This document shows, piece after piece, positions 7,251-58,160 of a DNA stretch of 64,000 nt. The notes beneath the pieces are model-generated. The model was not told the DNA's origin. It worked only from the letters and a program-made list of their open reading frames with translations, and ran no database searches. The stretch's first letter is position 1. The number at the start of each line of letters is the position of its first letter. This stretch comes from Chthonomonadaceae bacterium (GTDB taxonomy: Bacteria > Armatimonadota > Chthonomonadetes > Chthonomonadales > Chthonomonadaceae). The translations under genes and the position numbers were made by a program. The stretch is taken from NCBI GenBank assembly GCA_035650735.1, contig DASRGZ010000076.1, positions 1 through 64,000 of the forward strand, written 5' to 3'.

Positions 7251-7520
7251 ACCTCACCCAGTGGCCCTCACCCCCGGCCCATTGCCAGGGTCGGCAGGGT
7301 TAGGGGCCCTGCCTCCGCCTTGCCACAGCCCTCCGCCTGGCGACCCCCGGCGCTGCGGGAGAGGGGAGAGGCTCCCACCCCCTTCCCCACTGCCAGGGTC
7401 GGCAAGGTTACGGCCCTTGCCTCCGCCTTGCGACACCTTGCGATCCCCAAGAACAGGGGAGGGGAGACGAGAAGCTGGGTCACCCCCTTCCCTCCCAGGG
7501 AAGGGGGCCGGGGGATTAGG
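7251..7520. repeat. Cluster of C-rich REP-like palindromes (family A) carrying two inserted 45-bp hairpin elements (7281-7343, 7389-7443)
   Basis: CCCTCACCCCCGGCCC...GGGAGAGGGG and CCCCTTCCC...GGGAAGGGG units; family A also near 4755, 22160-22515, 28335-28670, 31661, 34670, 37119-37390, 45408, 50393, 57990-58290. Confidence 0.85.
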
Positions 7521-7525
7521 ATGCT

Positions 7526-8830
7526 CTACAAGTGCCAGGGTGCGCGGTAGGGCTGGGCGAGCATCCGGTTGGCTTCCTCATCGCCGATAAACCGGTGATT
7601 GACAGGGTCCCACTGTAGCTTGCGGCCCAACAGATAGGAGATGTTGGCGATGATGGGCAGGATAATGACGTTGTAGCCGATTTCAACGGACATGACCGGC
7701 TTCTCGCGCGTGCGGATACAGCGCCGCCAGTTCTGCCGGTGGCGCTCCGTCGGGTCGGGGGAGGGGTCGGGATCAATATAGACGTGCTGGCCGTCGGCAG
7801 GCGGATGGTACTGCTTGGCCTTATCCTCCGTGTCGGTGCCCGCATCGCCACCGGAGACGATCAGCGTGTCCCGGTCGCCATAGTATTTCGCGCCCCACTC
7901 GATGCCATTATAACGCGCGCCCGGCTGGCTCCAGGTCAGCGTCCAGTCCGGATCTTTGAATTCCCACTTCACTTCCATCGTCACCGGCACATCCCAGACG
8001 CCCTCTTTGGCCGGCTCACCGGTTGCCTCCACGCTGACCGGCCCGGCGTTGTCGGCGTTCATGCATAGCATCACGATGCTCAGCACATGGTTGCCCCGGT
8101 CGCGGATAAAGCCGGCGCCAAAATCCATCATCCAGCGGAAGTTGAAATGGACGTAGACCGGGTTATAAGGCCGCCAGCGTGCCGGGCCAAGCCACAGATC
8201 CCAGTCCAGCTCGGGCGGAGGCGCCTTCTCCTCGCCCCAGCCATCGGTGAAGTTGGGCGTGTGCCAGACCTCCACATGCGATACCTTCCCGATCTGGCCG
8301 TTGCGGATATATTCGGCGGCGATTTTGGCGTTGGGGTTGGAGCGGCCCTGCGCGCCGATCTGGACCACGCGCCCGTATTTGTTGGCGGCGTTTACCATCG
8401 CCTGGCCTTCCTGGATGGTCTTGCAGGTCGGCTTCTCGCAGTAGACATCCTTGCCGGCCTGGCAGGCGTGGACGGTCATGATGGCGTGCCAGTGGTCGGG
8501 CGTGCCGATGGTGATGGCGTCTATATCCTTACGGTCGAGGATGTAGCGGTAATCTTTGGTAAGCAGCGGCGTGCCCTGAACGGTCTTGGCGACCTCGGCT
8601 AGATGGTTGGCGTCCACGTCGCAGAGCGCGGCGGCGGCATCGGGCACGACATGGCTGCGGCCCATCCCGCCCAGGCCGATGTGCCCATAGACGATCCGAT
8701 CATTGGGGCCGGGGCGGCCCGGCCTCGCCAGTATGCCGCTGGGGAGGACATAAGGCATCGCGAACGCCGCTGCTGAGGCCGTGGACGCCTTGAGAAATTT
8801 TCGTCTTGAAATCTGCTTTTGTCGTTCCAA
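7526..8830 (-). CDS. Tat-exported Gfo/Idh/MocA oxidoreductase
   Basis: SRRKFLK Tat motif, IGLGGMG, GTPDHWH, YCEKP, DWDLWLGPA. Confidence 0.93.
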   Translation of the reverse strand: MERQKQISRRKFLKASTASAAAFAMPYVLPSGILARPGRPGPNDRIVYGHIGLGGMGRSHVVPDAAAALCDVDANHLAEVAKTVQGTPLLTKDYRYILDRKDIDAITIGTPDHWHAIMTVHACQAGKDVYCEKPTCKTIQEGQAMVNAANKYGRVVQIGAQGRSNPNAKIAAEYIRNGQIGKVSHVEVWHTPNFTDGWGEEKAPPPELDWDLWLGPARWRPYNPVYVHFNFRWMMDFGAGFIRDRGNHVLSIVMLCMNADNAGPVSVEATGEPAKEGVWDVPVTMEVKWEFKDPDWTLTWSQPGARYNGIEWGAKYYGDRDTLIVSGGDAGTDTEDKAKQYHPPADGQHVYIDPDPSPDPTERHRQNWRRCIRTREKPVMSVEIGYNVIILPIIANISYLLGRKLQWDPVNHRFIGDEEANRMLAQPYRAPWHL

Positions 8831-8947
8831 CGCTGGAAACCCCCTTCTCCGCTCTCCTTACATAAACAAAAGTTAGACGCCAACCTCTGATCTCCTCCTG
8901 TTTTCTCCTTCTGGCAGGGTCCTTCCGTTTGCCCTGTACTCGCCGCC

Positions 8948-9267
8948 GGGCACGGAAAGTACCCGGCTATGGGGCCTAACGGCCAGGCGTCCTGGCGGAC
9001 GCCCAGCAAAGCCAGGAGTTTCCGTCCGAAGGACGGTCGGCGGCGCAGCCGCCCTCTAGACGGGTATTTTCCATGCCCGGCTAGGACCGGGGTTTTCAAC
9101 CCCCGTCTGTGTGGCCTTCGGCCAAGCGACTGCAAGGGACGGCGCTACGACTGCTAGGGTCGGAACTGGGCACGCTCGACTGCCAGGGACGCCGCTCAAC
9201 GGCTCGCGGCTCTGCCTGGCGATCTCCGCCTGGCGATACTCGCGCCTCTGCCTTGCGACTGGCGGAC
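8948..9267. repeat. Composite REP/REPIN-like repeat (family B) with a triple-nested hairpin element at 9129-9258
   Basis: Colinear with 48889-49082; units CGGGTA..AAAGTACCCGG, GGCC..CGGCCAAGCGTCCTGGCGGACG, CGTCCGAAGGACG. Confidence 0.85.
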
Positions 9268-9509
9268 ACCAAAAACGCAAAAACATCGAGAACGGAAGGA
9301 CCTGTTCTTGTAGACGATTAGATTTGCAAAAGTCATTAGCAGCCCGAAAAGAAAACGGAAGGATTCTGAGAGGAGCGCCGTGCCGCTCGGTGAAGGGTTT
9401 TTGCGCGGAACTGTCGAAAGGATGCTTGCTGTTCGCTACGCGACGCGCTGGGAAGGTTCCGGGAACTCCTATCCGGGCTCTGTCTTCTAATTTGTGAAGG
9501 GAAGAACGT

Positions 9510-10430
<921 letters not shown>

Positions 10431-10537
10431 CGGGCAGGAATTAGGACCGAGGTCGCGAAATCAATTGAATGTTGATGCTTGATTCCTATAGCTAATACGT
10501 GCGGTCTCCCCGAGGCCGGAAGTGGATAGATAGTAGC

Positions 10538-11179
10538 ATGGAACAACTGGTCGCGTTTGGATTATTGGGAATCGGCCTGGCGCTTCTGGCGGCGGGGATC
10601 GCCCTGGGCGGCCTGTCCCGAATGCCTTTGGAGATGTGGATGGCGGTGTTGAGCGTCCTCGGCCTGGTCGGGATCGGCAAATCGGCCAAGCGTCTGTTAC
10701 AGGATTGGCTGGATGAGCCGCGCCTGCGTCGGACACAGCGGCGGGCCTCGCCGCTGGCGGCCTCGCTGGTGCCGCAACTGCTGAGCGATTACACGCCCGT
10801 CGTCGTTGAGGCGGCGGAACAGTTGGGCACGGAGCGGGACACCACCGCCGTTCCCGGCCTATTGCGCGCCCTGGAGTATTGCGTGGACACCCAGCGTCCC
10901 GGCTGGCGCGACCGGGCTGAGGCGCTTGCCAACGCGCTGGGCCGGATCGGGGATTGCCGCGCGCTGGATCTGCTCTATCGCCTGGAGAACGTGCGCGGCA
11001 TCGGCTTTATCCCGGCTATCCGCAGCGCGATCACCCGCATTGAGCCGCAGGCCACGCTGCTGCGGCCCGGCTGCATCGGCCTGCCCATGCCGGAGACGCT
11101 GCTGCGGCCCGCACAGGCCCGGCATGCTGCCGAGGAGCCGAAGCTGTTATTGCGCGCCGCGGAGGCCGAAGAGCCTTGA
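10538..11179 (+). CDS. Membrane-anchored HEAT-repeat protein with triple LLR[P/A] tail
   Basis: Two N-terminal TM helices, AAEQLG/ANALGRIGD HEAT units, tail TLLRPG..TLLRPA..LLLRAA. Confidence 0.75.
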   Translation: MEQLVAFGLLGIGLALLAAGIALGGLSRMPLEMWMAVLSVLGLVGIGKSAKRLLQDWLDEPRLRRTQRRASPLAASLVPQLLSDYTPVVVEAAEQLGTERDTTAVPGLLRALEYCVDTQRPGWRDRAEALANALGRIGDCRALDLLYRLENVRGIGFIPAIRSAITRIEPQATLLRPGCIGLPMPETLLRPAQARHAAEEPKLLLRAAEAEEP

Positions 11180-13284
11180 TCGATTGGGGGAAGGGGATCC
11201 TCCTGCCTGGGCGTCGTTTCGGCGCGCTGGCGGCTGTCGCGCTATGCAACCCGGTGGGGACAGGCGCATGGCGCGCGGCAGGGCCGCCCACTCCTCCCAC
11301 GCCTCTGGCGCGACTGCGGCACGCCTATGCGCTCGACCGTATGGAGACAATGCGCCGCTACACCGAGGCGCACGCCATTGTGAGGGCGCGCGTGGAGATG
11401 TGGCTGCCGGTGCATAATGCGTTTCGTGTGGTCAGCTACTACCGGGGAGAGCGCACCTACGAGCGGATCGCGATAGGCAGCTTTCTGGGCGAACGATGGT
11501 ATGATCGGGCGCGCAAGGTCGGCTGGGAGCGGCACGGCGGCTACGTCAACGATCTCGCTCCGACCGATCTTCTGGAGGCACGACAGGCCCAGGCCCATAC
11601 CTTTCGCCTGCTGGCAGATGGGGAAAAACCAGGCGCGCAGGCGATAGATAGGGGCCTGCGGCGGCTGCCGGACGGCACGACCGCGCGCCGCATCCGCTTT
11701 GTTCCGCCGCCCGCGCCTTCCCCCGCAGAGGCCAACGCCCCGGAAGCCGTCCCCACCGACTTCTACCTTGATCCCCGTACCGACCGCCTGCGCGCCATCG
11801 GATATCGGGACCGCGACCCGCATCGCGGCGTGCCTGCCGAGACGATTATGGTGATCGCCTCCTGGATGCCGGCGACCCCGGCGCGGCCATTTTCCTATCC
11901 GGGCGTCCTGCGGGTCTATCAGGACGGCAGGCTGGCCCAGCGCATCCAGAACGAGACGGTGGACTGCCAGACGCCCCTTGCCGACGACCGCTTTGCCAGG
12001 CCGGTAGAAGCCGACCATTTCAGCCCGGCCTCCCGTTTGCCCACGCGCGTTCCTTTGGATTTCGTGCACGGCTACTGCGTCGTGCCGGTCTACGTCAACG
12101 GTCAGCGGCGGGCAAGCCGTTTCCTGCTGGATACCGGCGCGGCCTCCACCACGCTGTCTCGCCCGCTGTCCCGCCGATTAAGGCTGCGCCTGGGCGCTCG
12201 TATCACCAACTACAGCGGCCTGGGCAATTTTGCCAGCCGCCTCACCCGCATCCAGAGCCTGCGCGTCGGCGGGGCCGAATTGCGCAGCCTGCCGGTAGAT
12301 GCCGTCACCGACAACGCCCTGGATTCGCTGGCTGCCGCCGTCGGGGAGCACCTAGACGGCATCCTGGGCAACGACTTTCTGCGCGCCTTCCAGATGACGC
12401 TGGACTATGGCGGGGCGAATGGCCCGGTGTTGAAGTTCCAGCGCCCGGACGCGCCCGCGCCGAGCGGTACGCGCGTGCCTTTCTTCTTCTCTGGGGGCGC
12501 TCCGGCGGTGATCGCCCGCATTCCTGGCGGCGCGGACATCTCCATGACGGTGGATACCGGCGCACCGACGACCTGGCTGCCCCCGCGCTACGTCAATTTG
12601 CTGCCCGCTGACCGCTGCGCCGTTTGGTTCGGCTTTGCTGGCGAGCCGGCAGGCACACGCCTGGTCTGGCTGCCGGAGATCACGCTGCCCGCCGCGCCGG
12701 ACATGAAAACCGGGGCAGTGCTGCCGCCGAGCGCATCCACCGCTGCGCCAACAGTGCCCCTCGTGGCTCCATCGGGGCCGCTCGCACGCTCGAAGGGCGT
12801 GACCCTGAGCGGACAGGTCGCCTGGTCGGTCGTGGTCCCGCGCACCTCTGGCCCGACCGGCTCCCTGCTGGCCGATGAGTACGAAGGGCTGTTCGGCAGC
12901 GACCTGCTGCGCTACTTCCGCATCACGTTTGACTTTCGGCGCGGCGCACTGGTCTTTGAGCCGCTGTCGCAACCGGCGCTCAGTCGCGGGGATGCCGTAG
13001 GACTGGGCATCTGGCCCGACTTCAAGCCATTGCAGATGGGGAGAAGGACGCTGCGGCGCGTGTTTGTGGAGAAGCTCTGGCCCTTCTCGCCGGCGGCGCG
13101 CGCTGGGGTGCGCGTGGGCGATGAGCTAATGGAGGTGGAGGATCGGCCGATCTATTCTCTGACCGAATCGGAGTTGGCCGAATACCTGTGGGGCGGGCAG
13201 GAAGGGCGATCCGTGCGCTTGCGCATCCGCCGGCGTGGGGATGTACGCCGCATCGTAGAGGTGGAGTACCGCCGCCTCTTCTAA
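11176..13284 (+). CDS. Secreted retropepsin-like aspartyl protease with two protease domains and C-terminal PDZ
   Basis: LLDTGA/GILGNDFL and TVDTGA/GLFGSDLL pairs; SPAARAGVRVGD PDZ motif. Confidence 0.85.
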   Translation: MIDWGKGILLPGRRFGALAAVALCNPVGTGAWRAAGPPTPPTPLARLRHAYALDRMETMRRYTEAHAIVRARVEMWLPVHNAFRVVSYYRGERTYERIAIGSFLGERWYDRARKVGWERHGGYVNDLAPTDLLEARQAQAHTFRLLADGEKPGAQAIDRGLRRLPDGTTARRIRFVPPPAPSPAEANAPEAVPTDFYLDPRTDRLRAIGYRDRDPHRGVPAETIMVIASWMPATPARPFSYPGVLRVYQDGRLAQRIQNETVDCQTPLADDRFARPVEADHFSPASRLPTRVPLDFVHGYCVVPVYVNGQRRASRFLLDTGAASTTLSRPLSRRLRLRLGARITNYSGLGNFASRLTRIQSLRVGGAELRSLPVDAVTDNALDSLAAAVGEHLDGILGNDFLRAFQMTLDYGGANGPVLKFQRPDAPAPSGTRVPFFFSGGAPAVIARIPGGADISMTVDTGAPTTWLPPRYVNLLPADRCAVWFGFAGEPAGTRLVWLPEITLPAAPDMKTGAVLPPSASTAAPTVPLVAPSGPLARSKGVTLSGQVAWSVVVPRTSGPTGSLLADEYEGLFGSDLLRYFRITFDFRRGALVFEPLSQPALSRGDAVGLGIWPDFKPLQMGRRTLRRVFVEKLWPFSPAARAGVRVGDELMEVEDRPIYSLTESELAEYLWGGQEGRSVRLRIRRRGDVRRIVEVEYRRLF

Positions 13285-13292
13285 GAGAGGCC

Positions 13293-13415
13293 GCCCGGCC
13301 CTGATGAACCTTGACTTTTTCATCGGGTAATCCCCGGTTCGTAGGGCCATACACCTAAGGACCTAGCCGCCCTGCGATTACCGGATTTAGTTGTCAAGGT
13401 TCATCAGGGCCGGGC
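13293..13415. repeat. 123-bp element with perfect 23-bp terminal inverted repeats (MITE-like)
   Basis: GCCCGGCCCTGATGAACCTTGAC at 13293-13315 and its exact reverse complement at 13393-13415. Confidence 0.75.
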
Positions 13416-13428
13416 AGAATTATGAGGG

Positions 13429-14619: not shown

Positions 14620-14631
14620 CCTTTCAGATGA

Positions 14632-17916
<3,285 letters not shown>

Positions 17917-17946
17917 ACAAGCCGCCAAAGTCGGGTCGCCTTTGTG

Positions 17947-22178: not shown

Positions 22179-22327
22179 ACTGCTCGGGTCGGGGCTACAA
22201 TGGACTGCAAGGGTCGGGCCTGCCATGGTTCGCCCCACTGCCAGGGTCGGCAAGGTTACGGCCCTTGCCTCCGCCTTGCGACACCTTGCGACACGGCTCT
22301 GCCTTGCCACACCCCTCCGCCTGGCGA
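22179..22327 (+). mobile_element. Nested 45-bp hairpin elements (3 left ends, 4 right ends) inside a family A REP
   Basis: Left ends at 22179, 22204, 22237; flanks CCCTCACCCCCTGTCCCC and CCCCCAATTCTAGG. Confidence 0.7.
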
Positions 22328-28297: not shown

Positions 28298-28405
28298 CAG
28301 GGATCGATCCAGGGCTAAAAAACCTATGAGTATGCCTAACCCCCCGTCCCCCTTCCCTACGAGGGAAGGGGGTGACCCAACTTTTCCTCTCTCCTCTGCT
28401 TGAGA

Positions 28406-28639
28406 AGTTCAGGGGCGGACAGTCGCTGTTAGCGACGGAATAGAATTCCTTCGCTCTGTGGCGTCCCGCCCAGTGACTGCAAGGGTCGAGCCTCAACGGT
28501 TCGGCCTTCCGCCTTGCGACACCTACGCGGACACGTACCGACTGAGAGACTGGTAGGTCTCCCCGTAGGGGGAGACTGGGCCGGAGGCCACCCAGCGAAG
28601 GCTTTAGCCCGTCGAACAATAAGTGTCCGCCCTTGAACC
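28406..28639. mobile_element. ~234-bp non-autonomous MITE inserted in a REP hairpin loop
   Basis: TIRs AGTTCAGGGGCGGACAGT / GGTTCAAGGGCGGACACT; direct repeat TTGAGA at 28400-28405 and 28640-28645. Confidence 0.75.
28476..28519 (+). mobile_element. Single unit of the 45-bp hairpin element inside the MITE
   Basis: ACTGCAAGGGTC-GAGCC-TCAACGGTTC-GGCCT-TCCG-CCTTGCGA. Confidence 0.7.
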
Positions 28640-33840: not shown

Positions 33841-33843
33841 GGC

Positions 33844-34650: not shown

Positions 34651-34780
34651 CGCCTGTGTGAGCGCTCACTCTAACCCCCCCTCTCGCTTCGGGAGAAGGC
34701 AACGCAAAACAGACTCTCCCCTCTCCCGCAGCGTGGGAGAGGGGCCGGGGGTGAGGGCAATAAAGATAGCGGGTAAAATT

Positions 34781-37136: not shown

Positions 37137-37190
37137 ACTGCCAGGGTCGGCGCTCAACGGTTCGCGCCTCCGCCTCGCGACACCTTGCGA
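37137..37190 (+). mobile_element. 45-bp hairpin element (1 left end, 2 right ends) inside a family A REP
   Basis: Flanks CCTAACCCCCCGGCCCCC / CCCTACGAGGGAAGGG match the intact REP at 28336-28372 minus TT. Confidence 0.72.
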
Positions 37191-37325
37191 CCCTACGAGG
37201 GAAGGGAGGGACCCGGCTTCTGCTCTCTCTTCTCCCTAGCAGGGAGAAGGGCCAGGGAGGAGGGGAGATACAAGAGAACGAAAGAACCTGGCAGTGAGAG
37301 ATTCCCCCTCCCCTGTTCTTGGGGA

Positions 37326-37370
37326 TCGCTAGGCGGAGGCCCGAACCATTGCAGGCCCGACCCTAGCAGT
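37326..37370 (-). mobile_element. 45-bp hairpin element, reverse orientation, inside a family A REP
   Basis: Minus strand ACTGCTAGGGTC-GGGCC-TGCAATGGTTC-GGGCC-TCCG-CCTAGCGA. Confidence 0.72.
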
Positions 37371-47398: not shown

Positions 47399-47614
47399 AG
47401 ATTGCTCTTTACGACTCAAGGGTAAGGAGGCTCCCCTTTTGCTGCCGGGGAATGGCTGCCGTGTTTCTGTCATACAGGTACGCTCGCGTCGCCGAATCGT
47501 GCTCAGCAATAGGGACCCTCATGCGGCGGACCTTGCGCGAGAGCGCAGGGAAAACGCGCCTGTCTCGCGAACCACCAGGATAGATTCCAGGTAAGACGGA
47601 GTAAGAGCACGGCC

Positions 47615-48019: not shown

Positions 48020-48087
48020 CCTCTTTCCGGCAGGGTTTAGCCTGCCGAGGGTATGGAGGCCGCTCCCCTCTCCTTAAGAAGGCGCCC

Positions 48088-48849: not shown

Positions 48850-48888
48850 AACAGGCTTACCTCTAGATCTAAGGAATGAAGCCCTTGT

Positions 48889-49082
48889 CGGGTACTGAAA
48901 GTACCCGGCTCTAGGGCCTGCGGCCAAGCGTCCTGCGGACGGCAAAGCTTAAAAGGTAGTGAGCGTCCGAAGGACGGTCGGCGGCGCAGCCGCCCTCTAG
49001 CCGGGTATTTTCCATGCCCGGCACGGATCGGAGGTTTTCAACCCCCGGCTCTAGGGCCTGCGGCCAAGCGTCCTGGCGGACG
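48889..49082. repeat. Family B composite repeat (uninterrupted reference copy)
   Basis: Colinear with 8948-9267; partial copy at 54952-55008. Confidence 0.85.
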
Positions 49083-49153
49083 CGCATTTGTACGAGGTTC
49101 AACTGGTTCGTCCGTATGATGGCCGCACGGGGCGCGGTCGCGGCGGATTGCTC

Positions 49154-51378: not shown

Positions 51379-51506
51379 GGCAGGCTCCTTCCGGCAGATA
51401 TGGCAAAGGATTATTCGGTTGCGTAGGCGTATATACCTGCGCCATTTCGCGGAACGGATCAAACAGATCCGGCTCCGCAGGTTTGCCATCAAAGGAGAAA
51501 TACATC

Positions 51507-51830
51507 GTGCCGCAGATTACCGTCGAAGGCGAGAAGACCTTCGAGGCCGAGGAAGGCAAGAAACTGGTCTTGTGCATCGAAGACGCAGGCATAGATATTC
51601 TGCATCGCTGCGGCGGGCTGGCCCGCTGCACCACCTGCCGCGTGGAGATTCTGGCCGGGGAGGCGCCGCCCATGAGCGAGCGGGAGCGCGCCGCCCTGCA
51701 GCGTGAGCCGGGATTGCTCGGCAAGTACCGGCTTTCCTGCCAGATCCGCGTCGCCAGCGATCTAACGGTGCGCGTCGGCAAGCGCGCGCACATCGAGGGC
51801 CTGCGTCCAGGCCCGCGCCCGGCAGCGTAA
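51507..51830 (+). CDS. 2Fe-2S ferredoxin
   Basis: CGGLARCTTCRV...RLSCQI; AAGGAG RBS, GTG start. Confidence 0.9.
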   Translation: MPQITVEGEKTFEAEEGKKLVLCIEDAGIDILHRCGGLARCTTCRVEILAGEAPPMSERERAALQREPGLLGKYRLSCQIRVASDLTVRVGKRAHIEGLRPGPRPAA

Positions 51831-51986
51831 ACACCGGGATTTGCCGTCCTTTTAGCGGCAGGCTCAACCCTGCCGCTGTGGGGCGCTTTGCGCCCGCCGC
51901 CCACCGGCGTGGGCGGAAAAAGCGCCGCCATGAAAGGGCAGTCAAGGAGCCGGAGGCGCCGCTTCCAGTCTCGAAGTCGCACTCTT

Positions 51987-52769
51987 ATGTTCTCTAAAAT
52001 TCTACGGGCTGTCCGAAATCCGCAGATCGTCAGTAACTTTGTCCGGTGGAAGCTACTACAACTACGTATTGCTCTCCACAACGCTACTCTCCGGCGAGCA
52101 ACACGGCCACAAGGAAACCCTTCCTGCCTGCCAGAGTTGGCTCAGATCCAGGAACGCTGCAAGCTGGATACCGACATTAGCGACCATCTGCCCACGCTCT
52201 TCGCGGAGACGCTGACCATGCATCCCCGGTTGATCGTCGAGCTTGGGGTCAGGGGAGGGGACAGCACCTTTGTCCTGGAGCGGGCCGCGCGCCTGTGCCA
52301 GGCCAGGCTAATTAGCGTGGATATTGCCGACTGCGCCAAGGTTACTTCCTGGCCGGATTGGCTCTTTGTCCAGAGCGATGATGTCGCCTTTGCCAAGGAG
52401 TTCCCGCGCTACTGCGCCGAACGCGGCCTTGCCCCCCGCATTGATGTCCTCTTCATTGATACCAGCCATCTCTACGACCATACGGTTCAGGAACTGGCTT
52501 GCTGGCTGCCCTTCTTAGCCGAACACGCCAAAGTGCTGTTCCACGATACCAATCAGCGGCGATTGGGACGCCGTAAGGATGGCCGGCTGATGGCCGGCAT
52601 AGACAATCGGGGCGTGATCGCGGCGCTGGAAAACTATTTTGGGCGCTCCTTCGATGCCGGCCAGGACTTTGTGGATGTCTGCAAGGGGTGGCTCATCAAG
52701 CACTTCGCCTACAGCAACGGCCTTACCATCCTTGAGAAACTGCCCAGACAGCCTGGCTATAAACTTTGA
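51987..52769 (+). CDS. Class I SAM-dependent methyltransferase
   Basis: IVELGVRGGDST, LFIDTSH, LFHDT. Confidence 0.85.
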   Translation: MFSKILRAVRNPQIVSNFVRWKLLQLRIALHNATLRRATRPQGNPSCLPELAQIQERCKLDTDISDHLPTLFAETLTMHPRLIVELGVRGGDSTFVLERAARLCQARLISVDIADCAKVTSWPDWLFVQSDDVAFAKEFPRYCAERGLAPRIDVLFIDTSHLYDHTVQELACWLPFLAEHAKVLFHDTNQRRLGRRKDGRLMAGIDNRGVIAALENYFGRSFDAGQDFVDVCKGWLIKHFAYSNGLTILEKLPRQPGYKL

Positions 52770-52798
52770 TATCCTGAGGGAGGCGGGAAGGACAAGGA

Positions 52799-52908
52799 GC
52801 GCGGGCCGCGTGGCGGCCCGCGCGTTTTTGTGTGGGGCGCGCTAGCGCGCCCCACACAAAAACGGTTTCTGGCAGATTTATTAGGTTTCAGCAAACATTA
52901 TCGGACGT
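52799..52908. repeat. Two-copy element with a perfect 42-bp palindrome (second copy ~61979-62087)
   Basis: CGTTTTTGTGTGGGGCGCGCTAGCGCGCCCCACACAAAAACG (52823-52864); shared tail ATTATCGGACGT. Confidence 0.8.
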
Positions 52909-52968
52909 TACGGGAGAGTAGTATGTAATGATAGGTGGCGTGAGCGGTTGGGCTGCCGGGAGGGTGCG

Positions 52969-53018
52969 AAAAGCAAAGGCATGGGAGGGCGCTGCTGCCT
53001 TCCCATGCCTTTTGTTTT
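52969..53018. terminator. Bidirectional intrinsic terminator
   Basis: AAAAGCAAAGGCATGGGA..TCCCATGCCTTTTGTTTT between convergent genes. Confidence 0.75.
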
Positions 53019-53045
53019 GGAGAACGCGGAATCAAGCCAACGGCA

Positions 53046-54182
53046 TCAGGCCGCAAGCGTCTCCCGCAGGCGTGCCCCGGCCCGGTTGCCGCGCAGCTTC
53101 TCCAGCGCCTGATTTTCCAGTTGGCGGGCGCGCTCGCGCGTGATGTGCAGCGCCTTGCCGACCTCTTCCAGCGTGTGCGGCTGGGTGCCGTTCAGCCCGA
53201 AGCGCAGCCGCAGGACATCTTGTTCGCGCGGCGTCAGGCTCTTGAGGGCGCGCGCCACCTCCTCCTGAACGGCGTGGCGGAACACCTTGGCGTAGGGTCC
53301 CTGGCTCTCTTCCGCCGGAATGAACTCACCCAGACGCTGCTCGCCTTCCGCGCCAAGCGGCTGATCCAGCGAGGCGGGCTCGACCATGCTTTGCAGCAGC
53401 GTCGCCAACTGCTCTTCCGACATACTGGCCGCTTTGGCCAACTCGGCGCGGGTCGGCGTGCGGCCCAGGTCGTTCTCCAGCTCGCCCCGAATGCGCGTTA
53501 GCCGCCCGATGGTATCCACGATATAGGCCGGCAGGCGGATACTGCGCCCGGAGTTGGCGATGGCGCGCGTGATGGTCTGCCGGATCCAGTGGGTGGCGTA
53601 GGTGCTAAACCGAAAGCCTTTGCGCCAGTTGAACTTATCGGCGGCATGAATCAGGCCGATAATGCCCTCCTGGATCAGGTCTTCCATGGGCAGGCCCCGC
53701 CCCTGATAGCGCTGGGCGATGGAGGTCACCAGGCGCAGGTTGGCATTAACCAGCTTCTCCTTGGCGGCCCGGTCGCCCTTTTCGATCCGCTTGGCCAGAA
53801 TGATCTCCTGGCAGGGCGTTAGCAGCACGCCCTTGCCGGTAGGCATCGGCGAGGAGTTGCGCTCTTCCAGAGGGACGGCAAACGCGCTCTTGCGCGCTGC
53901 GTGCGGGCGCATCTTATGATCAACCGGAGGCAGCAGCTCATCGCCGGCCTCTTCGGCCAGAGCGGCAGACTCATCGCCATCCGGGACGTAATCTTGCAGC
54001 AGACGCTGCACCTGGTTGGTATCCAGATCTATCGTCGCACTCGGGGTCTCTTCCAGCAGGAACGTCCTGCGCCGCCGTCCGTTGCCTGTGCGAGTACGGC
54101 GAGGCGCGCGCCGACCGATGTGGCCAACTTCCCCATTGGCCAGTTCGACCTCCTCCTGGGCGTCTATTAGCATCGGACGCAT
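53046..54182 (-). CDS. RpoD/RpoS-like sigma70 factor lacking region 1.1
   Basis: ANLRLV, DLIQEGIIGL, FSTYATHWIRQ, TLEEVG..ITRERARQLE. Confidence 0.92.
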   Translation of the reverse strand: MRPMLIDAQEEVELANGEVGHIGRRAPRRTRTGNGRRRRTFLLEETPSATIDLDTNQVQRLLQDYVPDGDESAALAEEAGDELLPPVDHKMRPHAARKSAFAVPLEERNSSPMPTGKGVLLTPCQEIILAKRIEKGDRAAKEKLVNANLRLVTSIAQRYQGRGLPMEDLIQEGIIGLIHAADKFNWRKGFRFSTYATHWIRQTITRAIANSGRSIRLPAYIVDTIGRLTRIRGELENDLGRTPTRAELAKAASMSEEQLATLLQSMVEPASLDQPLGAEGEQRLGEFIPAEESQGPYAKVFRHAVQEEVARALKSLTPREQDVLRLRFGLNGTQPHTLEEVGKALHITRERARQLENQALEKLRGNRAGARLRETLAA

Positions 54183-54439
54183 TCTTTCATCCCCCCTTGC
54201 TCTTATCTTCCGGTGTCTTCCGGCGCGCACGCGCCGCAATACTTTCAATACGTTCCCCTCAAGGGAAGCGTTGCACCGCTCCGTCGCATCTCCCCAGCCA
54301 GATCCTACAATGGACAAGGGTCAGGCAAAATGCGCAGGTTTCGCAGCCCGGCATGGATATTAGACGGATAAAACAGCAAAACGGACGATAAATGTTGGCC
54401 GTGCCTTTATGAAATGAAGAGCGCGGGACGTCTTATGCT

Positions 54440-54874
54440 CTAACTTGTCTGCGGCTTTGCCTGCGCCCGCTTTTGCACCTGGTCCGCGCCGAGGTTGGAG
54501 AGCGCATCGGCGCGCTTGTTGCGCTCGCGGGGAACGTGCGTGACGGTGGCGCTTGCGAACTGGCGCAGCAGGCAGCGCGCCCGCTCGTAGAGGGGAAGGA
54601 GGTGGGGAGCTTTGACGGCGTAGCGCCCGTTGAGCTGGCGAGCCATAAGCTCGCTGTCGGTGTAGACATCCAGGCGGTCGCAGCCGAGGGCGCGCGCTTC
54701 CTCCAGCGCGCGTATCATCGCCGTATACTCGGCCACGTTGTTGGTGGTGTGGCCCAGCGGCTCGCCGATCTCCTTGACCACGTTGCCGCCCGCGTCCTGA
54801 ATCAGTATCCCGATCCCGGCGGGTCCGGGATTGCCCCGCGCCGCGCCATCTACATACGCCGTCCATCTCTCCAC
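54440..54874 (-). CDS. rnhA: Ribonuclease HI
   Basis: DGAARGNPGPAG, TNNVAEY, DSEL, HVPRERNKRADAL. Confidence 0.9.
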   Translation of the reverse strand: MERWTAYVDGAARGNPGPAGIGILIQDAGGNVVKEIGEPLGHTTNNVAEYTAMIRALEEARALGCDRLDVYTDSELMARQLNGRYAVKAPHLLPLYERARCLLRQFASATVTHVPRERNKRADALSNLGADQVQKRAQAKPQTS

Positions 54875-55051
54875 GCGCTTTGTCTCTCCTTATTTTGCTT
54901 CCCTTACGCCGACTTATTCGGGCCATGAAGACCCGTATGGTGAGCATCCCCAGCCGGGTATTTCAATGCCCGTCTGGGGGCCTTGTGGCCAGCCGTCCTG
55001 GCGGACGGAACCAACTAATCGCCAGGAATTCGCCTGCGTAACGGGAGTTAT

Positions 55052-55777
55052 TTATTCTTGCGGGGGCGGGATGCACAGCAGGCGCCCGCAGTTTTCACAG
55101 ACCTCGATGGTGTTGCCTTCGTGGATGCGCTTTACCTGGCTGGAGGGCAGCCCCATTTTGCAGCCGCCGCAGGCGTTCTCATCCTCCAGAGCGGCGATGG
55201 CGAGGCCGCCCTTGCTGGCGCGCAGGCTTTCGTAGCGCTTGAGCAGGGCGGGCGGCACGGCTTTGGCGGCTTCGGCGCGCTGCGCGGCGACGATGCGGGC
55301 CTGCGCGACCAGCGCCTCGGCATCGCGCTTATAGGCGGCGCGCTTGGCCTGAAAGGCCGCCTCGGCGGCGGCCAGCGCCTGCTTTGTCTCCGCCTCGCGC
55401 GCCCGCTGCGCTTCAACCTCATCCATCAGGGTCAGGATCTTCTCATCGAGCCGCCCGCGCTGGCGCTTAAGCATTTCGATCTCTTCCTGCAGGGACTGGA
55501 GCTCTTTGGGCGCGCGCACCGTGCCGCCATAGAGCTTCTTTTCCATCGCGGCGGCTTTCGTCTCTACCGTCTGCTCTTCCAGTTCGGAGTCGCGCAGGGC
55601 CGTGCTGGTAGCATGCAGGGTGGTATCGGCCTCTTTGTGGGCGGCCTGCGCCGCTTCGAGAGCGGCCTTTTCGGCGCGGCCCTGATCGAGCGCGTTATAC
55701 TGCCTCTGCAGGGCGGCCAGCGCGCTATCTAGCTGCTGAAGTCTATATAAAGCCTGTAGCTGAGCCTTTGTATCCAT
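55052..55777 (-). CDS. Coiled-coil protein with C4 zinc ribbon (DUF164-like)
   Basis: LQQLD, long coiled coil, CGGC..CENCGRLL; adjacent to rnhA. Confidence 0.9.
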   Translation of the reverse strand: MDTKAQLQALYRLQQLDSALAALQRQYNALDQGRAEKAALEAAQAAHKEADTTLHATSTALRDSELEEQTVETKAAAMEKKLYGGTVRAPKELQSLQEEIEMLKRQRGRLDEKILTLMDEVEAQRAREAETKQALAAAEAAFQAKRAAYKRDAEALVAQARIVAAQRAEAAKAVPPALLKRYESLRASKGGLAIAALEDENACGGCKMGLPSSQVKRIHEGNTIEVCENCGRLLCIPPPQE

Positions 55778-56040
55778 TGTGTTTTTCTCTGCTCGTGTGG
55801 CGGGCGGGGCGGCGAGTCCTCATTAGACATGCCGTTTCGTCTCTCCTGCCTTTCTTCAAAGACGTCTCTCTGATCTCTACCCATTATCTATTATAAATAC
55901 GTGAGCAGGGAAGAAATTATGTCTGCTGCGTGAACCCTTTGGCGCTCTCCTGTATCCAATAGAGCGAAGTCCCGATTTGCGGGGACGGCGACAAAGACGT
56001 GGTCGTCCAGACCACACGCGGCTGCCGGAGGACGGTCACA

Positions 56041-56634
56041 GTGCGAGACGATAAACGGTTAGCGCAACGCATCCAGCAGGGAGACCGGCGGGCCTTCGAG
56101 GCGTTTGTGGACACCTACGGGGCGCAGGTACATCGCCTCGTTCGGCGCTATATCGAGAACGCCACCGATGCTGAGGATGTGACGCAGGAGATATTTCTCG
56201 ATCTCTATCGCAACATCGGTAGTTTTCGGGGCGAGTCGGCGCTGTCCACCTGGGTCTATCGGGTGGCCGTCAATCGCTGCCTGCAGCACTGTCGGCGTCT
56301 GCGGCCCGATAGCGTCTCCTATGACGAGCAGACGATACGGGCCGAGGAGGACTGGAAGGCGGACCCGGCGCGGGCGGCGGCGCGGCGTGAGCTTTGCGAT
56401 AAAGTGCAGTGCGCGCTCAATACGCTCTCGCCGCTGCATCAGGACGTGGTGATCCTCTCACAATTGCACGGCCTGACCTATCAGGAGTGCGCGAACGTGC
56501 TGGGCGTGCCGGTGGGCACGGTCAAGTCCCGGCTGTCCAATGCGTTCTGCCGCCTGCGCGAAAATCTAGGTAGTTACGTCAACGGAGAGAGCCATACGCT
56601 GTGCTCCGGGGCTGTGAGGGAGAAGGCGCAATGA
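56041..56634 (+). CDS. ECF sigma factor
   Basis: DAEDVTQEIF, LSTWVYRVAVN, GTVKSRL; GGAGG RBS. Confidence 0.92.
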   Translation: MRDDKRLAQRIQQGDRRAFEAFVDTYGAQVHRLVRRYIENATDAEDVTQEIFLDLYRNIGSFRGESALSTWVYRVAVNRCLQHCRRLRPDSVSYDEQTIRAEEDWKADPARAAARRELCDKVQCALNTLSPLHQDVVILSQLHGLTYQECANVLGVPVGTVKSRLSNAFCRLRENLGSYVNGESHTLCSGAVREKAQ

Positions 56635-57959
56635 GAGATTGTCAGACGCTGCGAGAGGAATTGAGAGCCTATCTGGACGGCGAGCTCTCGCCGGTACAGA
56701 GGTTGGCCGTGCGCCTCCACCTTGCGCGCTGCGCGGCGTGTCGCGAGGAGATGCGGGAGATGGAACAGATCAGCAACGACTTACGTGCGGGGGACGCCGG
56801 AACACTTGACCCGGCCCTGCGCGCCAAAATCCTGGCAAGCATTCCTACAGAAGCGCCGCCCGCGCCGGAGACGCCTGCCGAGCCGGTGGTTCCCAAATGG
56901 CGGCGGAAACCGTTCCTTCTCTGGAGCGCGACGGCGGCAGCGGTGCTGGCCTGGTTTGTCATCTACCCGCTGACGCAGGGATGGACGCCATTGGCGGAGC
57001 GCAGCATATCATTGGCGCCGGGCGGCGCTTCGGCCAGTAAGGCAGCAAGGCCGGCTATAGCCGAACATCGTCTCGCCTCGCCGCCGATGGAAACTGCTAA
57101 AACGGCGACAAAGATGCCTACCTTTGCGAGTAAAGGCGCTGTAGAGAATGCGGCGGGAGCGCCATCGGCACCAACTGTTGTAGCGGCACCAACGGCGGTA
57201 GATAATGATTCTTTTTCGGACGGCCACTTAAAGGAAAGGATGAGACAAAGCAAGAGTATTGCTGCGGGCGAGGCTGCCAATGCTCCAGACCTGGTTTCCT
57301 CGGAGCGACAGGTGCATAAGCAGGCCGACATCACGGTGGAAGTGACCAACGTGGAGGAGAAGACCGAAGAGGTTGAGCAGATGGTCAAGACGGTGGGCGG
57401 GTTTGTCGCCAACAACCAGCTTTCTACCGGCGAAGACAACCTCAAAGCCGCCTCGCTGACTACCAGAGTTCCGGTCGGACAGTTTGAGATGATACTGAGC
57501 AAGCTGGGGAAACTGGGCGAAGTCAAGGCCAAGAACGTCACCGGCGAGGACATCACCGAGCAGATGAGCGACCAGGAGCAGCTTACCCACACCCTCAGCG
57601 ATGAGGTCAGGACAACAGAAGCCAGGCTCCGCGATAAGCGCCATCAGACGCAGACCTGGGAGGATGCAGAAAACTTACGCCAACTGCGCGTTCGCGCGGC
57701 CCAGGCGCAAGGACGCCTGCAACTGCTTAAGAAGCTCTCGGCGCTGGCGACTATTACCGTCCAGCTACAGGAAAAGCCCAAGCCCACCATCCAGAGCGGC
57801 GGCGGCTTCCTGGATGAGATGGGGGATACGGGCCGCGCTGCCGTGCACTCCTTCCTGCAGGCGGCCCGCTTGCCGATTCTGATGCTGATCTGGCTGCTGG
57901 CCTATGCGCCGATCTGGATTCTGCTGGCGATTGCCTATCGGTACGCCGTCCGCACTTGA
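56631..57959 (+). CDS. zf-HC2 anti-sigma fused to a DUF4349-like domain
   Basis: YLDGEL..HLARCAAC, TM helix, GEDITEQ..ATITVQL, C-terminal TM. Confidence 0.85.
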   Translation: MRDCQTLREELRAYLDGELSPVQRLAVRLHLARCAACREEMREMEQISNDLRAGDAGTLDPALRAKILASIPTEAPPAPETPAEPVVPKWRRKPFLLWSATAAAVLAWFVIYPLTQGWTPLAERSISLAPGGASASKAARPAIAEHRLASPPMETAKTATKMPTFASKGAVENAAGAPSAPTVVAAPTAVDNDSFSDGHLKERMRQSKSIAAGEAANAPDLVSSERQVHKQADITVEVTNVEEKTEEVEQMVKTVGGFVANNQLSTGEDNLKAASLTTRVPVGQFEMILSKLGKLGEVKAKNVTGEDITEQMSDQEQLTHTLSDEVRTTEARLRDKRHQTQTWEDAENLRQLRVRAAQAQGRLQLLKKLSALATITVQLQEKPKPTIQSGGGFLDEMGDTGRAAVHSFLQAARLPILMLIWLLAYAPIWILLAIAYRYAVRT

Positions 57960-58029
57960 GGTTCCTACCTAACCGCTCGTCCCTTCCTGACCTAACCCCT
58001 CGGCCCTACTGCCCTCACCCCCAGCCCCT

Positions 58030-58160
58030 ACTGCCAGGGGCGGGGCTGCAATGGACTGCCAGGATCGGCCCTGCAACGGTTCGGGCCACTGCCAGGGTCG
58101 GCAAGGGTACGGCCCTTGCCTCCGCCTGGCCACACCTTGCGACACCCCGCCGCCTTGCGA
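58030..58160 (+). mobile_element. Triple-nested 45-bp hairpin elements inside a family A REP
   Basis: Left ends at 58030, 58055, 58088 closed by three right ends; flanks CCCTCACCCCCAGCCCCT / TCCACGCTGCGGGAGAGGG. Confidence 0.75.

What the first reader, a model, noticed from the sequence alone, without database searches (positions are those of the whole stretch)
7281..58160. A ~45-bp covarying hairpin that inserts only into other repeats, replacing a pyrimidine dinucleotide with no target duplication
Seen: the unit ACT-GC[C/A/T]AGG-G[T/A]C-(inner stem, loop often T(G)CAA[C/T]GG[T/C]TC)-TC[C/T]G-CCT[G/T/A]GC-GA occurs at 8 loci (7281, 7389, 9129, 22179, 28476, 37137, 37326 on minus, 58030), with 14 left ends in total. 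Every locus is inside another repeat (family A REP, family B repeat, a MITE) or inside another unit. Intact sibling repeats in this window let me rebuild empty sites: CCAAGCG[TC]CTGGCGGAC (49064 vs 9129), CCCCC[TT]CCCTACG (28347 vs 37137), CCCCT[CT]CCCACGC (reverse of 34719 vs 58030). At 7389 and 37326 no loss is needed. The outer helix covaries (GCCAGG/CCTGGC at 9179, GCAAGG/CCTTGC at 28476, GCTAGG/CCTAGC at 37326), though some copies have a mismatch. Inner stems differ in sequence but mostly keep pairing (GGCGC/GCGCC, GCCGC/GCGGC, GGCCC/GGGCC, GGCAAGG/CCTTGCC). Established: REP-associated HUH transposases (TnpA-REP/RAYT) act on ssDNA hairpins, and the E. coli enzyme cleaves at CT; some IS110 elements target REPs via a 2-nt core. 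Inference: this is a minimal non-autonomous mobile hairpin that parasitises repeats and is mobilised in trans. I know of no described element like it.
Basis: partly seen in the sequence, partly recalled or inferred. Interest (0 to 1): 0.88.

Follow-up and report, generated by a model that had tools for sequence, protein, structure and literature searches.

The report
Self-nesting 45-base hairpin repeat family
A soil bacterium carries about 750 copies of a 45-base DNA hairpin that sits only inside other repeats, often inside copies of itself like Russian dolls; it looks like a tiny mobile element whose moving enzyme is still unknown.

Summary
The unit is real. All 8 window loci and 14 left ends are confirmed. 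Genome-wide a strict parser finds 749 units in 504 loci, nested up to 4 deep, against 8 in a reversed-sequence control. 481 of 504 loci have a repeated flank, against 4% of random 50-mers. The inner stem covaries strongly; the outer helix has one variable pair that is paired only about half the time. No target duplication occurs: a unit that has received an insertion is 2 nt shorter in 190 of 193 cases. The rule is not simply "a pyrimidine dinucleotide is replaced". The next two bases usually change too (TTCG, TCCG, CTTG become unit+CA), and some sites lose 3-4 nt. The family occurs in 4 of 42 genomes of the bacterial family and has bloomed only here. No partner gene was found. The two REP-flanked RAYT-like genes look defective and are flanked by the host repeats, not by the unit. 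Best reading: a non-autonomous, trans-mobilised hairpin element close to REP/REPIN. From memory of a paper I could not open, it is also close to the self-nesting cyanobacterial SDR elements, so it is not without precedent.

The parts
7281..7325 (+). Simple unit with a variant left end (ATTGCC instead of ACTGCC), inner stem GGCAGGG/CCCTGCC
7326..7343 (+). Orphan right piece CAGCCCTCCGCCTGGCGA: the 3' arm and right end of a former outer unit whose left half is absent
   Evidence: this class is counted genome-wide
7389..7433 (+). Simple 45-nt unit (GGCAAGG/CCTTGCC type) in a C-rich MITE arm
   Evidence: model R1 gives 63.4 bits
7434..7443 (+). Orphan right piece CACCTTGCGA
9129..9258 (+). Three-level nest inside a REP-A copy (GGCCAAGCG^...^CTGGCGGAC). 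The outer unit spans 9129-9258.
   Evidence: the empty sibling is at 49062-49081
9150..9236 (+). Middle unit of the 9129 nest (GGAAC type), sitting in the loop of the outer unit where other copies read CTTG
   Evidence: a contig joint from 9149 to 9239 with CTTG between is seen in 4 runs
9179..9222 (+). Innermost unit of the 9129 nest (GGGAC/GCCGC type, 44 nt), followed by TC
22179..22327 (+). Nest of three units plus one extra right piece. Left ends lie at 22179, 22204 and 22237; four right ends end at 22281, 22291, 22309 and 22327.
28476..28519 (+). Simple 44-nt unit in host repeat ...GCCCAGTG^CACCTACGCGGAC
37137..37180 (+). Simple 44-nt unit in the left arm of a MITE (CCCCC^...^CCCTACGAGGGAAGG)
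   Evidence: model R1 gives 68.2 bits
37181..37190 (+). Orphan right piece CACCTTGCGA
37326..37370 (-). Simple 45-nt unit on the minus strand, in the opposite arm of the repeat cluster and convergent with the unit at 37137
   Evidence: model R1 gives 67.2 bits
58030..58160 (+). Three-level nest. Outer unit 58030-58160; middle unit 58055-58142 in the outer loop; inner unit 58088-58132 between the 3' arm and the right end of the middle unit.
   Evidence: DNA fold of the whole nest -36.7 kcal/mol, z -2.5
49062..49081 (+). Empty REP-A target site GGCCAAGCG-TC-CTGGCGGAC
   Evidence: 22 genomic copies read TCCT at this site
28348..28364 (+). Empty MITE target site CCCCC-TT-CCCTACG

Best explanation
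The unit is a 44/45-nt REP-like hairpin repeat: ACT, then GCNAGG, then G(T/A)C, a 5-7 bp variable stem with its loop, TC(C/T)G, CCTNGC, and GA. It behaves as a non-autonomous mobile element.

Shown here:
- It enters in one orientation at short pyrimidine-rich motifs (Y-Y-N-N, typically T-Y-C-N).
- These motifs lie in other structured repeats: two REP families, the C-rich arms of MITEs, and three positions of the unit itself.
- It makes no target duplication and leaves the site 2 nt shorter (occasionally 3-4).
- Composites always start with a left end and stop with a right end, even when the two ends come from different units.

Inferred:
- It moves as single-stranded DNA.
- Its two ends are recognised separately by an enzyme supplied in trans. 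A HUH/Y1 enzyme of the RAYT/IS200 kind is the leading candidate. Such enzymes bind a hairpin plus a 5' tetranucleotide and cut at a pyrimidine dinucleotide.
- After each insertion, copy number also rises passively when the host repeat or a whole nest is copied.

The enzyme is not identified. The present genome may hold only decayed candidates, or the gene may lie in unassembled sequence.
For: - Abundance against control: 749 units against 8.
- Location: 481 of 504 loci lie inside repeats, against 4% of random 50-mers.
- Filled and empty copies of the same host site exist with constant junctions.
- 190 of 193 level-2 units are exactly 2 nt shorter than intact ones.
- The same site is occupied by up to 12 different inner-arm types.
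- 32% of filled REP-A copies and 65% of filled MITE copies have an empty copy as nearest relative by flank.
- Orientation relative to the host is fixed: 44 adjacent pairs are +-, 0 are -+.
- The inner stem keeps pairing through at least 10 different complementary arm pairs. This is what one expects if a folded strand is recognised.
- The family is lineage-restricted and has bloomed: it is in 4 of 42 family genomes, with at least 149 matches here against 9, 7 and 1. The host REP-A repeat is abundant in the same-genus genome G001, which has few units.
- Units in the same kinds of host sites occur in other species' contigs (L114, L140, L146, L161, L182).
- Two Y1/RAYT-like genes are each flanked by inverted copies of the very REP families that serve as hosts. 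The G001 orthologue has the same layout.
- The REP-A 3' core CCTGGCGGAC resembles the unit's right end CCTGGCGAC (my comparison by eye of sequences).
- E. coli TnpA-REP needs a hairpin plus a 5' tetranucleotide, cuts at CT and transfers strands (PMC3479197, passages read).
Against: - No gene is flanked by the unit. 24 inverted unit pairs spaced 300-3000 bp enclose no recurring ORF. 25 neighbouring ORFs in low-copy genomes are ordinary genes.
- The REP-A-flanked RAYT reads DHVPL where 7 homologues read DHVHL or DRIHL. The second copy is split over two frames.
- RAYT homologues occur in 24 of 41 relatives, most of which lack the unit.
- Unit orientation shows no bias against local GC skew: 110/110 against 134/127, p 0.78. 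A lagging-strand ssDNA mechanism might leave such a bias.
- The left flank is not conserved, unlike the target tetranucleotide of IS200/IS605.
- No known HUH mechanism deletes target bases or changes the next two. The junction rule is unexplained: G at the fourth target position always becomes A in about 130 events.
- Filled copies cluster more than chance: the nearest neighbour is filled in 0.68 of cases against 0.36 expected, and 0.35 against 0.11. Some unit types are tied to one site, such as 39 of 42 at CGCTCG^TC. Many copies are therefore not independent insertions.
- Orphan ends can also arise by slippage between the direct repeats of ends inside a nest.
Confidence: 0.5

Rival explanations
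1. The units are modules of composite repeats. A handful of founding events placed a hairpin into each host family. Since then the copies have multiplied only because the host MITE/REP, or the whole nest, is copied, and because homologous repeat copies convert one another. The unit itself does not move now.
For: - Unit subfamilies are tied to sites: GCCGC type in 39 of 42 at CGCTCG^TC, GGCAG in 63 of 132 loop sites, GGCAA in 32 of 75 3' sites.
- Filled host copies are each other's nearest relatives more often than expected: 0.68 against 0.36, and 0.35 against 0.11.
- A composite of about 170 nt recurs at 14 or more places, and 40 of 448 contig ends fall in one similarity cluster represented by it.
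- The two bases after the unit depend on the host site, not on the unit type.
- Both Y1 candidate genes look defective.
Against: - About 20 distinct site types and 504 distinct 8+8-nt flank pairs among 842 events in the looser parse.
- Up to 12 inner-arm types occupy one site type.
- Outer units of at least three different stem types each keep their own matched arms on both sides of the insert (my reading of sequences). A conversion tract would therefore have to be the insert alone.
- Nests reach 4 levels with different inner and outer combinations.
- A third to two thirds of filled copies are closest to an empty copy.
Confidence: 0.25
2. The unit is moved by a different, unidentified recombinase. 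Candidates are a tyrosine or serine recombinase, an IS110-type enzyme acting on a short core, or a new nuclease/ligase. Such an enzyme would exchange a few bases at the crossover, which would explain the replaced and altered target bases.
For: - Target bases are replaced rather than duplicated, and the adjacent dinucleotide changes. That fits strand exchange across a short mismatched core better than HUH chemistry (my inference).
- IS110 elements are known to target REPs. I saw only the title and abstract of PMC1525189 in a listing, and the bridge-RNA paper PMC11208160 in the same listing.
- The assembly lacks all contigs under 2.4 kb, and many contig ends run into unassembled IS copies. A multicopy partner gene could therefore be missing.
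Against: - No IS110 DEDD domain, Y2 transposase or reverse transcriptase was found in the 97.6%-complete assembly. For Y2 the control genomes did not ring either, so that blank says little.
- DUF559 occurs only as a domain of a 1561-aa protein.
- A 45-bp double-stranded circle is physically implausible as an intermediate (established DNA stiffness, my inference).
Confidence: 0.17
3. The pattern is an assembly artefact, or the unit is a conserved functional RNA or terminator rather than mobile DNA.
For: - The Logan contigs laid break at the repeat loci, so they do not bridge them.
- All window loci are intergenic.
Against: - 74 of 80 metagenome-contig loci are 99.97-100% identical to this genome straight across unit loci. 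These include pairs of contigs that, judged by their name prefixes, come from different assemblies and cover the same locus (L158 = L169, L183 = L188).
- The same architecture recurs at 504 loci and in other species.
- No Rfam family matches.
- A functional RNA does not explain nesting inside copies of itself or residence only inside other repeats.
Confidence: 0.03

Closest known systems
REP / REPIN sequences with RAYT (TnpA-REP) Y1 HUH enzymes (Bertels and Rainey 2011, PMC3116915; Messing et al. 2012, PMC3479197)
   Same: Both are short, GC-rich, imperfect hairpins in high copy number in intergenic DNA. Both carry an invariant short 5' tail at the hairpin foot (ACTG here, GTAG in E. coli). 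Both are too small to encode anything and are presumed to be moved in trans. The genome has RAYT-like genes flanked by inverted REPs. The E. coli enzyme cuts at a pyrimidine dinucleotide (CT).
   Different: No RAYT is flanked by this unit; the RAYT-flanking repeats are the unit's hosts. The unit inserts into other repeats and into itself, up to 4 deep. It removes target bases. I found no description of such nesting for REPs or REPINs: the word 'nested' occurs 0 times in PMC3116915, and the search for REPIN+RAYT+nested gave only titles using the word in another sense.
Small dispersed repeats SDR1-8 of Nostocaceae (Elhai et al. 2008, Genome Res 18:1484; paper not held, features recalled from its abstract)
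   Same: As recalled, SDRs are very small hairpin repeats supported by compensatory changes. They are embedded in other repeats and minitransposons, and two families sit inside copies of themselves in complex nests. They insert precisely without an obvious duplication; SDR5 lies between bases 3 and 4 of HIP1 (PMC4390886, passage read). Their mobilising enzyme is unknown.
   Different: SDRs are 21-27 nt, not 45 nt. They are reported only in Nostocaceae (PMC5861425), whereas this lineage is probably Armatimonadota and is HIP1-poor (37 sites). The sequences share no similarity that I know of. The loss and alteration of target bases seen here is not something I recall for SDRs.
IS200/IS605 elements and their miniature derivatives (PATEs)
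   Same: Both are hairpin-ended and make no target duplication. IS200/IS605 uses ssDNA chemistry. The genome holds an IS605-type TnpB with a TnpA remnant.
   Different: IS200/IS605 elements have distinct left and right hairpins and insert 3' of a fixed tetra- or pentanucleotide without losing bases. Here there is one hairpin, the left flank is not conserved, and 2-4 target bases are lost.
IS110/IS1111 elements that target REPs or attC hairpins
   Same: Both prefer structured repeats, make no duplication and use a short core at the junction.
   Different: IS110/IS1111 elements are 1-1.5 kb and encode a DEDD recombinase. None was found here, and the unit has no coding capacity.

Membership tests
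REP/REPIN-RAYT system | Short imperfect palindrome, highly repeated, extragenic | tested here: met
   749 units against 8 in the control. The 8 window loci lie between ORFs. Pairing is supported by covariation.
REP/REPIN-RAYT system | Conserved tetranucleotide 5' of the hairpin foot (GTAG in E. coli) | tested here: inconclusive
   A1, C2, T3 and G4 are invariant in 75 aligned units, but the sequence is ACTG, not GTAG. Whether it acts as a guide is untested.
REP/REPIN-RAYT system | A single-copy RAYT gene flanked by the repeat in inverted orientation | tested here: not met
   The three Y1 loci carry no unit beside the gene; one 1-mismatch left-end motif lies about 800 nt from the gene in L092. 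The genes are flanked by REP-A and REP-C instead. The assembly lacks contigs under 2.4 kb, so a missed gene is possible.
REP/REPIN-RAYT system | REPIN: two inverted REPs separated by a spacer | tested here: inconclusive
   The two outer arms (GCNAGGG(T/A)C and its partial complement) resemble the REP-A core GTCCTGGCGGAC by eye. I ran no statistical test.
REP/REPIN-RAYT system | Cleavage and strand transfer by the cognate Y1 enzyme | not testable with these tools
   This needs biochemistry.
SDR elements (Elhai 2008; definition recalled) | Nested within copies of itself and embedded in other repeats | tested here: met
   Levels 1 to 4 hold 504, 193, 49 and 3 units. 481 of 504 loci have a repeated flank.
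SDR elements (Elhai 2008; definition recalled) | Length 21-27 nt; Nostocaceae | tested here: not met
   Units are 44/45 nt. The genome has 63% GC and few HIP1 sites. The only convincing named relative is a MAG labelled Chthonomonadaceae (L023).
IS200/IS605-derived miniature element | Fixed target tetra- or pentanucleotide immediately 5' of the left end; no loss of target bases | tested here: not met
   Left flanks vary (CAATGG, CGCTCG, CAAGCG, CGGGCC, GCCCCC and others). Net loss is 2 nt.
Classical MITE (DDE transposon derivative) | Terminal inverted repeats plus a target-site duplication | tested here: not met
   No duplication is seen, and filled sites are shorter than empty ones.
IS110-type REP-targeting element | DEDD (IS110) recombinase gene | tested here: not met
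   PF01548 gives 0 matches in the own genome, while the control genomes ring.
Any Rfam RNA family | Match at the gathering score | tested here: not met
   0 matches in the 64-kb window.

The most novel reading that the evidence does not exclude
The unit is the substrate of an undescribed kind of DNA strand exchange. A trans-acting enzyme swaps a folded 45-nt single strand for the 2-4 bases of a pyrimidine motif exposed in another DNA hairpin, a 'cassette exchange' rather than an insertion, and rewrites the neighbouring dinucleotide. Because the unit carries three such motifs itself, it can grow Russian-doll nests. If the cyanobacterial SDR elements work the same way, this would be a widespread, unrecognised class of minimal mobile DNA.
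Probability: 0.25. Interest if true: 0.85.

Novelty: new variant of a known kind. Interest (0 to 1): 0.6.

Why it matters
How REP-like hairpins spread is still unsettled. Published evidence is a few excision reads and in vitro cleavage (PMC3116915 and PMC3479197, passages read). This genome offers several hundred insertion junctions with matching empty sites, a strict orientation rule and a reproducible, odd footprint: two bases lost, and a G at the fourth target position turned into A. That gives a concrete rule which any proposed enzyme must reproduce, and short oligonucleotide substrates for testing it. It also shows that self-nesting mini-hairpins, which I recall only from Nostocaceae, exist in a distant phylum. 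That would argue for a general mechanism rather than a cyanobacterial curiosity. For genome work, these nests account for part of the assembly breaks: 40 of 448 contig ends fall in one similarity cluster represented by the composite.

Tried and rejected
- my fixed-length pattern was one base too long and found nothing, even in the own genome. I repeated it with a variable gap.
- the scan of named genomes used a pattern that was too loose. Only L023 was convincing.
- GC-skew orientation test: no bias. GC skew may be a poor guide to replication direction in a 224-contig assembly, so I count this as weak evidence against only.
- Orthologous filled/empty alleles: the only same-genus genome is 70-78% identical in the flanking genes, and the intergenic regions are not alignable.
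- Public runs: eight runs hold the region, none on record as RNA (no RNA holder listed). All are kept as contigs. The four laid show 0 differences in unique parts and break at the repeats, so they neither bridge the nests nor reveal alleles.
- Gene searches in the own genome without a useful hit: IS110, Y2 (controls silent, so uninformative), RVT_1, DUF559 (only a domain of a large protein).
- Partner gene by adjacency: nothing recurrent between inverted unit pairs or beside units in low-copy genomes.
- Thermodynamic significance of single units: not significant.
- Literature: Elhai 2008 could not be opened. Searches for nested REPINs or MITEs gave nothing relevant. A search for Armatimonadetes repeats gave nothing relevant in the titles and abstracts listed.
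- Earlier notes of this scan: none for this genome or sequence.
- Rejected ideas: an integron attC site (insertions are in loops and arms, not at the hairpin base; no array structure); a Tn916-like coupling sequence (it predicts a mixture of donor and target dinucleotides, whereas filled unit sites are almost uniformly CA); and deamination of Dcm sites as the cause of the variable outer pair (it explains C>T and G>A but not the common A/T pair; my reasoning).

Full report
**What is there**

The sequences at the eight stated loci read as described. A parser that finds an innermost unit, removes it and repeats recovers all 14 left ends in the window:
- single units at 7281, 7389, 28476, 37137 and 37326 (minus strand);
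- three-level nests at 9129, 22179 and 58030.

The window is contig C76 of a 6.52-Mb, 224-contig assembly with 63% GC. Its genes are sugar hydrolases, oxidoreductases and FG-GAP proteins. The only convincing hit among named public genomes is a MAG labelled Chthonomonadaceae (L023). The lineage is therefore probably Armatimonadota, not a cyanobacterium; HIP1 occurs only 37 times.

**More than chance**

- The exact pattern ACTGCNAGG(G/A)-N22-30-CCTNGC(G/C)A occurs 396 times in the genome and 0 times in the reversed genome. Allowing one mismatch at both ends gives 603 against 125, so I allowed one mismatch in total.
- With that rule the parser finds 749 units in 504 loci: 504 at level 1, 193 at level 2, 49 at level 3 and 3 at level 4. 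The reversed genome gives 8.
- No Rfam family matches the window.

**Structure**

Among 276 distinct 44/45-nt units, the four variable inner-stem pairs are paired in 91-96% of sequences. Shuffles give 47-73% (0 of 1000 as high) and shifted controls give 22-83%. At least ten different complementary arm pairs occur.

On an independent set of 75 units from the window, relatives and metagenome contigs:
- 94.1% of cells pair, against 78.1% in shuffles (0 of 500 as high);
- the covariation score is 0.348 against 0.071;
- slid controls give 31-57%;
- four of five inner pairs show changes on both sides.

The outer helix GCNAGG/CCTNGC is five invariant pairs plus one variable pair. That pair is paired in 48% of distinct units against 31% in shuffles (0 of 2000 as high). 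Over all copies C opposite T is the commonest state (158 of 593). Single units are no more stable than shuffled sequence as ssDNA (z from -1.1 to +0.9). The case for a fold therefore rests on covariation.

**Always inside repeats**

For 481 of 504 loci at least one 50-nt flank recurs three or more times in the genome, against 4% of 1000 random 50-mers. Eighteen loci have two 'unique' flanks. By eye about half of these are chance matches of the pattern, and most of the rest lie in short MITE arms that the BLAST threshold missed.

Hosts:
- a roughly 90-nt REP family ('REP-A', ...GGCCAAGCG^TC^CTGGCGGAC);
- a second REP family ('REP-C');
- a small hairpin GGGGC^CT(G/A)C^GGCCC;
- several C-rich arms of G/C-rich MITEs;
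- the unit itself at its loop (CAAYGG^), at the bulge 3' of the inner stem (^TCCG before CCTNGC) and at two subfamily-specific positions.

When two loci lie under 300 bp apart they are convergent (44) or tandem (37), never divergent (0). Orientation is therefore fixed relative to the host arms.

**The junction**

There is no duplication. After the inner unit is removed, the outer unit measures 43 or 42 nt instead of 45 or 44 in 190 of 193 level-2 cases, 48 of 49 level-3 cases and 3 of 3 level-4 cases.

I matched each of 243 parent units to its nearest intact relative. The first two target bases, mostly pyrimidines (TT, TC, CT; CG in one class of 13), are missing. The next two bases differ as well:
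- TT+CG becomes CA (58 cases);
- TC+CG becomes CA (37);
- CT+TG becomes CA (9) or TA (5);
- TC+GG becomes CA (5);
- TT+CC becomes TC (25).

In non-unit hosts:
- REP-A TCCT becomes unit+CT;
- CCCCC-TTCC-CTACG becomes unit+CC;
- CCCA becomes unit+CA;
- CTCC becomes unit+TC at two MITE sites;
- GGGGC-CT(G/A)C-GGCCC loses four bases;
- GGCAAGGT-TAC-GGCCC loses three.

The two bases after the unit follow the host site, not the unit type. A G at the fourth target position always appears as A. In another species' contig the bulge site reads TC[unit]CCTTGCGA, with no CA (L182). I know of no mechanism that predicts this rule, so it is recorded as unexplained.

**Composites**

Of 504 loci, 90 carry extra right-end pieces only, 44 carry extra left pieces only, 33 carry both and 337 carry neither. 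Examples in the window are 7326-7343, 7434-7443 and 37181-37190. Every composite begins with a left end and finishes with a right end.

Two readings fit:
- any left end can be mobilised together with any downstream right end, which implies the ends are recognised separately;
- slippage between the direct repeats of ends deletes parts of nests.

I cannot tell these apart. One composite of about 170 nt recurs at 14 or more places, and 40 of 448 contig ends fall in one similarity cluster represented by it.

**Independent insertion or hitch-hiking**

Both occur.
- For independent events: one site type holds up to 12 inner-arm types. Also, 32% of filled REP-A copies and 65% of filled MITE copies are closest, by 80 nt of flank, to an empty copy.
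- For co-amplification: filled copies are each other's nearest relatives about twice to three times as often as expected, and some unit types are nearly confined to one site.

**Distribution**

- The strict pattern is found in 4 of 41 genomes (own genome plus 40 relatives): 348 times here, 5, 1 and 1 in three relatives, and 0 in the others.
- A covariance model built from 75 units finds the family in 4 of 42 genomes of the bacterial family. Counts are at least 149 here (scoring cap), then 9, 7 and 1. These four genomes belong to 3 of 23 genera.
- The host REP-A repeat is abundant in the same-genus genome that has few units. The bloom is therefore recent and local.
- Metagenome contigs hold further units in the same kinds of host sites in other organisms (L114, L140, L146, L154, L161, L182).

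**Not an assembly artefact**

74 of 80 metagenome-contig loci are 99.97-100% identical to this genome across unit loci. These include pairs of contigs that, judged by their name prefixes, come from different assemblies and cover the same locus. Some of these assemblies may be the source of the genome, so this is reproducibility rather than independence. Logan contigs of four runs from three studies match the unique parts without a difference but stop at the repeats.

**The enzyme**

The assembly holds three Y1 (PF01797) matches.

1. A 166-aa RAYT-like gene is flanked by inverted REP-A copies. Its same-genus orthologue has the same layout. Its HUH motif reads DHVPL where six homologues read DHVHL, one reads DRIHL, and the second own copy reads DHIHL.
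2. A second gene is flanked by inverted REP-C copies and is split over two frames.
3. The third match is a TnpA remnant beside an IS605-type TnpB.

None of the three has a unit beside the gene. Homologues of the first occur in 24 of 41 genomes (own plus relatives), most of which lack the unit. No IS110, Y2 or reverse-transcriptase gene was found, and DUF559 appears only as a domain of a large protein. Nothing recurrent lies between inverted unit pairs or beside units in low-copy genomes. Unit orientation shows no bias against GC skew. The assembly contains no contig under 2.4 kb, and many ends run into unassembled IS copies. A multicopy partner gene could therefore simply be missing.

**Comparison with known systems**

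The unit works most like a REP/REPIN. It has a hairpin plus an invariant 5' tail, high copy number and no coding capacity, and RAYT genes are present in the genome. The E. coli RAYT cuts ssDNA at a pyrimidine dinucleotide and transfers strands (PMC3479197, passages read; PMC3116915, passages read). It fails the defining test of a RAYT flanked by the repeat.

In behaviour it most resembles the SDR elements of Nostocaceae, which as I recall from the abstract of Elhai et al. 2008 sit inside other repeats and inside themselves. That paper could not be opened. Only the precise insertion of SDR5 into HIP1 and the restriction to Nostocaceae are confirmed from citing papers. The unit is not a classical MITE (no duplication), not an IS200/IS605 derivative (no fixed 5' target, bases lost) and not IS110-linked.

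**Verdict**

This is a real, abundant, self-nesting hairpin repeat. It is best read as a trans-mobilised REP/SDR-like element whose enzyme and chemistry remain open. It is a new variant of a known kind rather than something without precedent. Its value lies in the hundreds of junctions and the strict, unexplained footprint, which make the mechanism testable.

Noticed in passing
G000:C166:80029-80526 (locus L092 1435-1935, minus strand; flanks at L092 1290-1405 and 1940-2010): A RAYT-like Y1 gene is flanked by inverted copies of the REP-A repeat, the classic REPtron layout. Its HUH motif reads DHVPL, whereas six homologues in relatives read DHVHL and one reads DRIHL. It is either an inactivated gene or a sequencing error.
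   Followed up: partly
G000:C166, locus L093 1200-1960: A second Y1/RAYT-like gene is split over two reading frames. It is flanked by inverted copies of a different REP family (CCCGGCCCTAAAGGACCGGGCTG(C/A)GGACGGCAAGCCC...). That family is also a host of the unit (site GCTTGCCG^TCCG^CAGCCC).
   Followed up: partly
G000:C52, locus L094 331-1626: An IS605-type TnpB ORF (392 aa, C-terminal zinc ribbon) lies next to a short remnant of a Y1 TnpA. No unit is associated with it.
   Followed up: no
For example G000:C40, C62, C63, C105, C126, C131, C155, C187, C194, C195, C206; also G019 locus L001 1476-1617: A composite repeat of about 170 nt is built from nested units plus a 40-nt non-unit piece (CATCAACATCAAGGTGGAAGGGTTGCGAATACTGGCCGTC) that leads into a unit with a damaged left end. 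It recurs at 14 or more places, 40 of 448 contig ends fall in one similarity cluster represented by it, and it is present in another genus.
   Followed up: partly
Window 37181-37325, 28330-28470, 34690-34760 and 7344-7388: Families of G/C-rich MITE-like repeats with C-rich arms (such as CCTAACCCCCCGGCCCCCTTCCCTACGAGGGAAGGGGG and CTCCCCTCTCCCGCAGCGTGGGAGAGGGG) serve as hosts. They are abundant in this genome and also present in the same-genus genome. I did not characterise them further.
   Followed up: no
Contig ends of G000 (for example C10 3' end, C190 5' end, C100 5' end): The assembly has no contig under 2.4 kb, and contig ends share about 140 nt of sequence. One end family of 28 and two of 10 and 8 (the latter two starting TTCACTGCCGTACACTTTTT) look like unassembled IS copies. 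Mobile-gene content is therefore under-represented.
   Followed up: partly
Whole genome G000: The cyanobacterial palindrome GCGATCGC occurs only 37 times, against roughly 218 expected from base composition.
   Followed up: no
Locus L182 (a metagenome contig from another organism) 27-164: This is a nest in another species. The inner unit sits between TC and CCTTGCGA of the outer unit, so CG is lost and no CA follows. The junction is shifted by two bases relative to this genome's rule.
   Followed up: no
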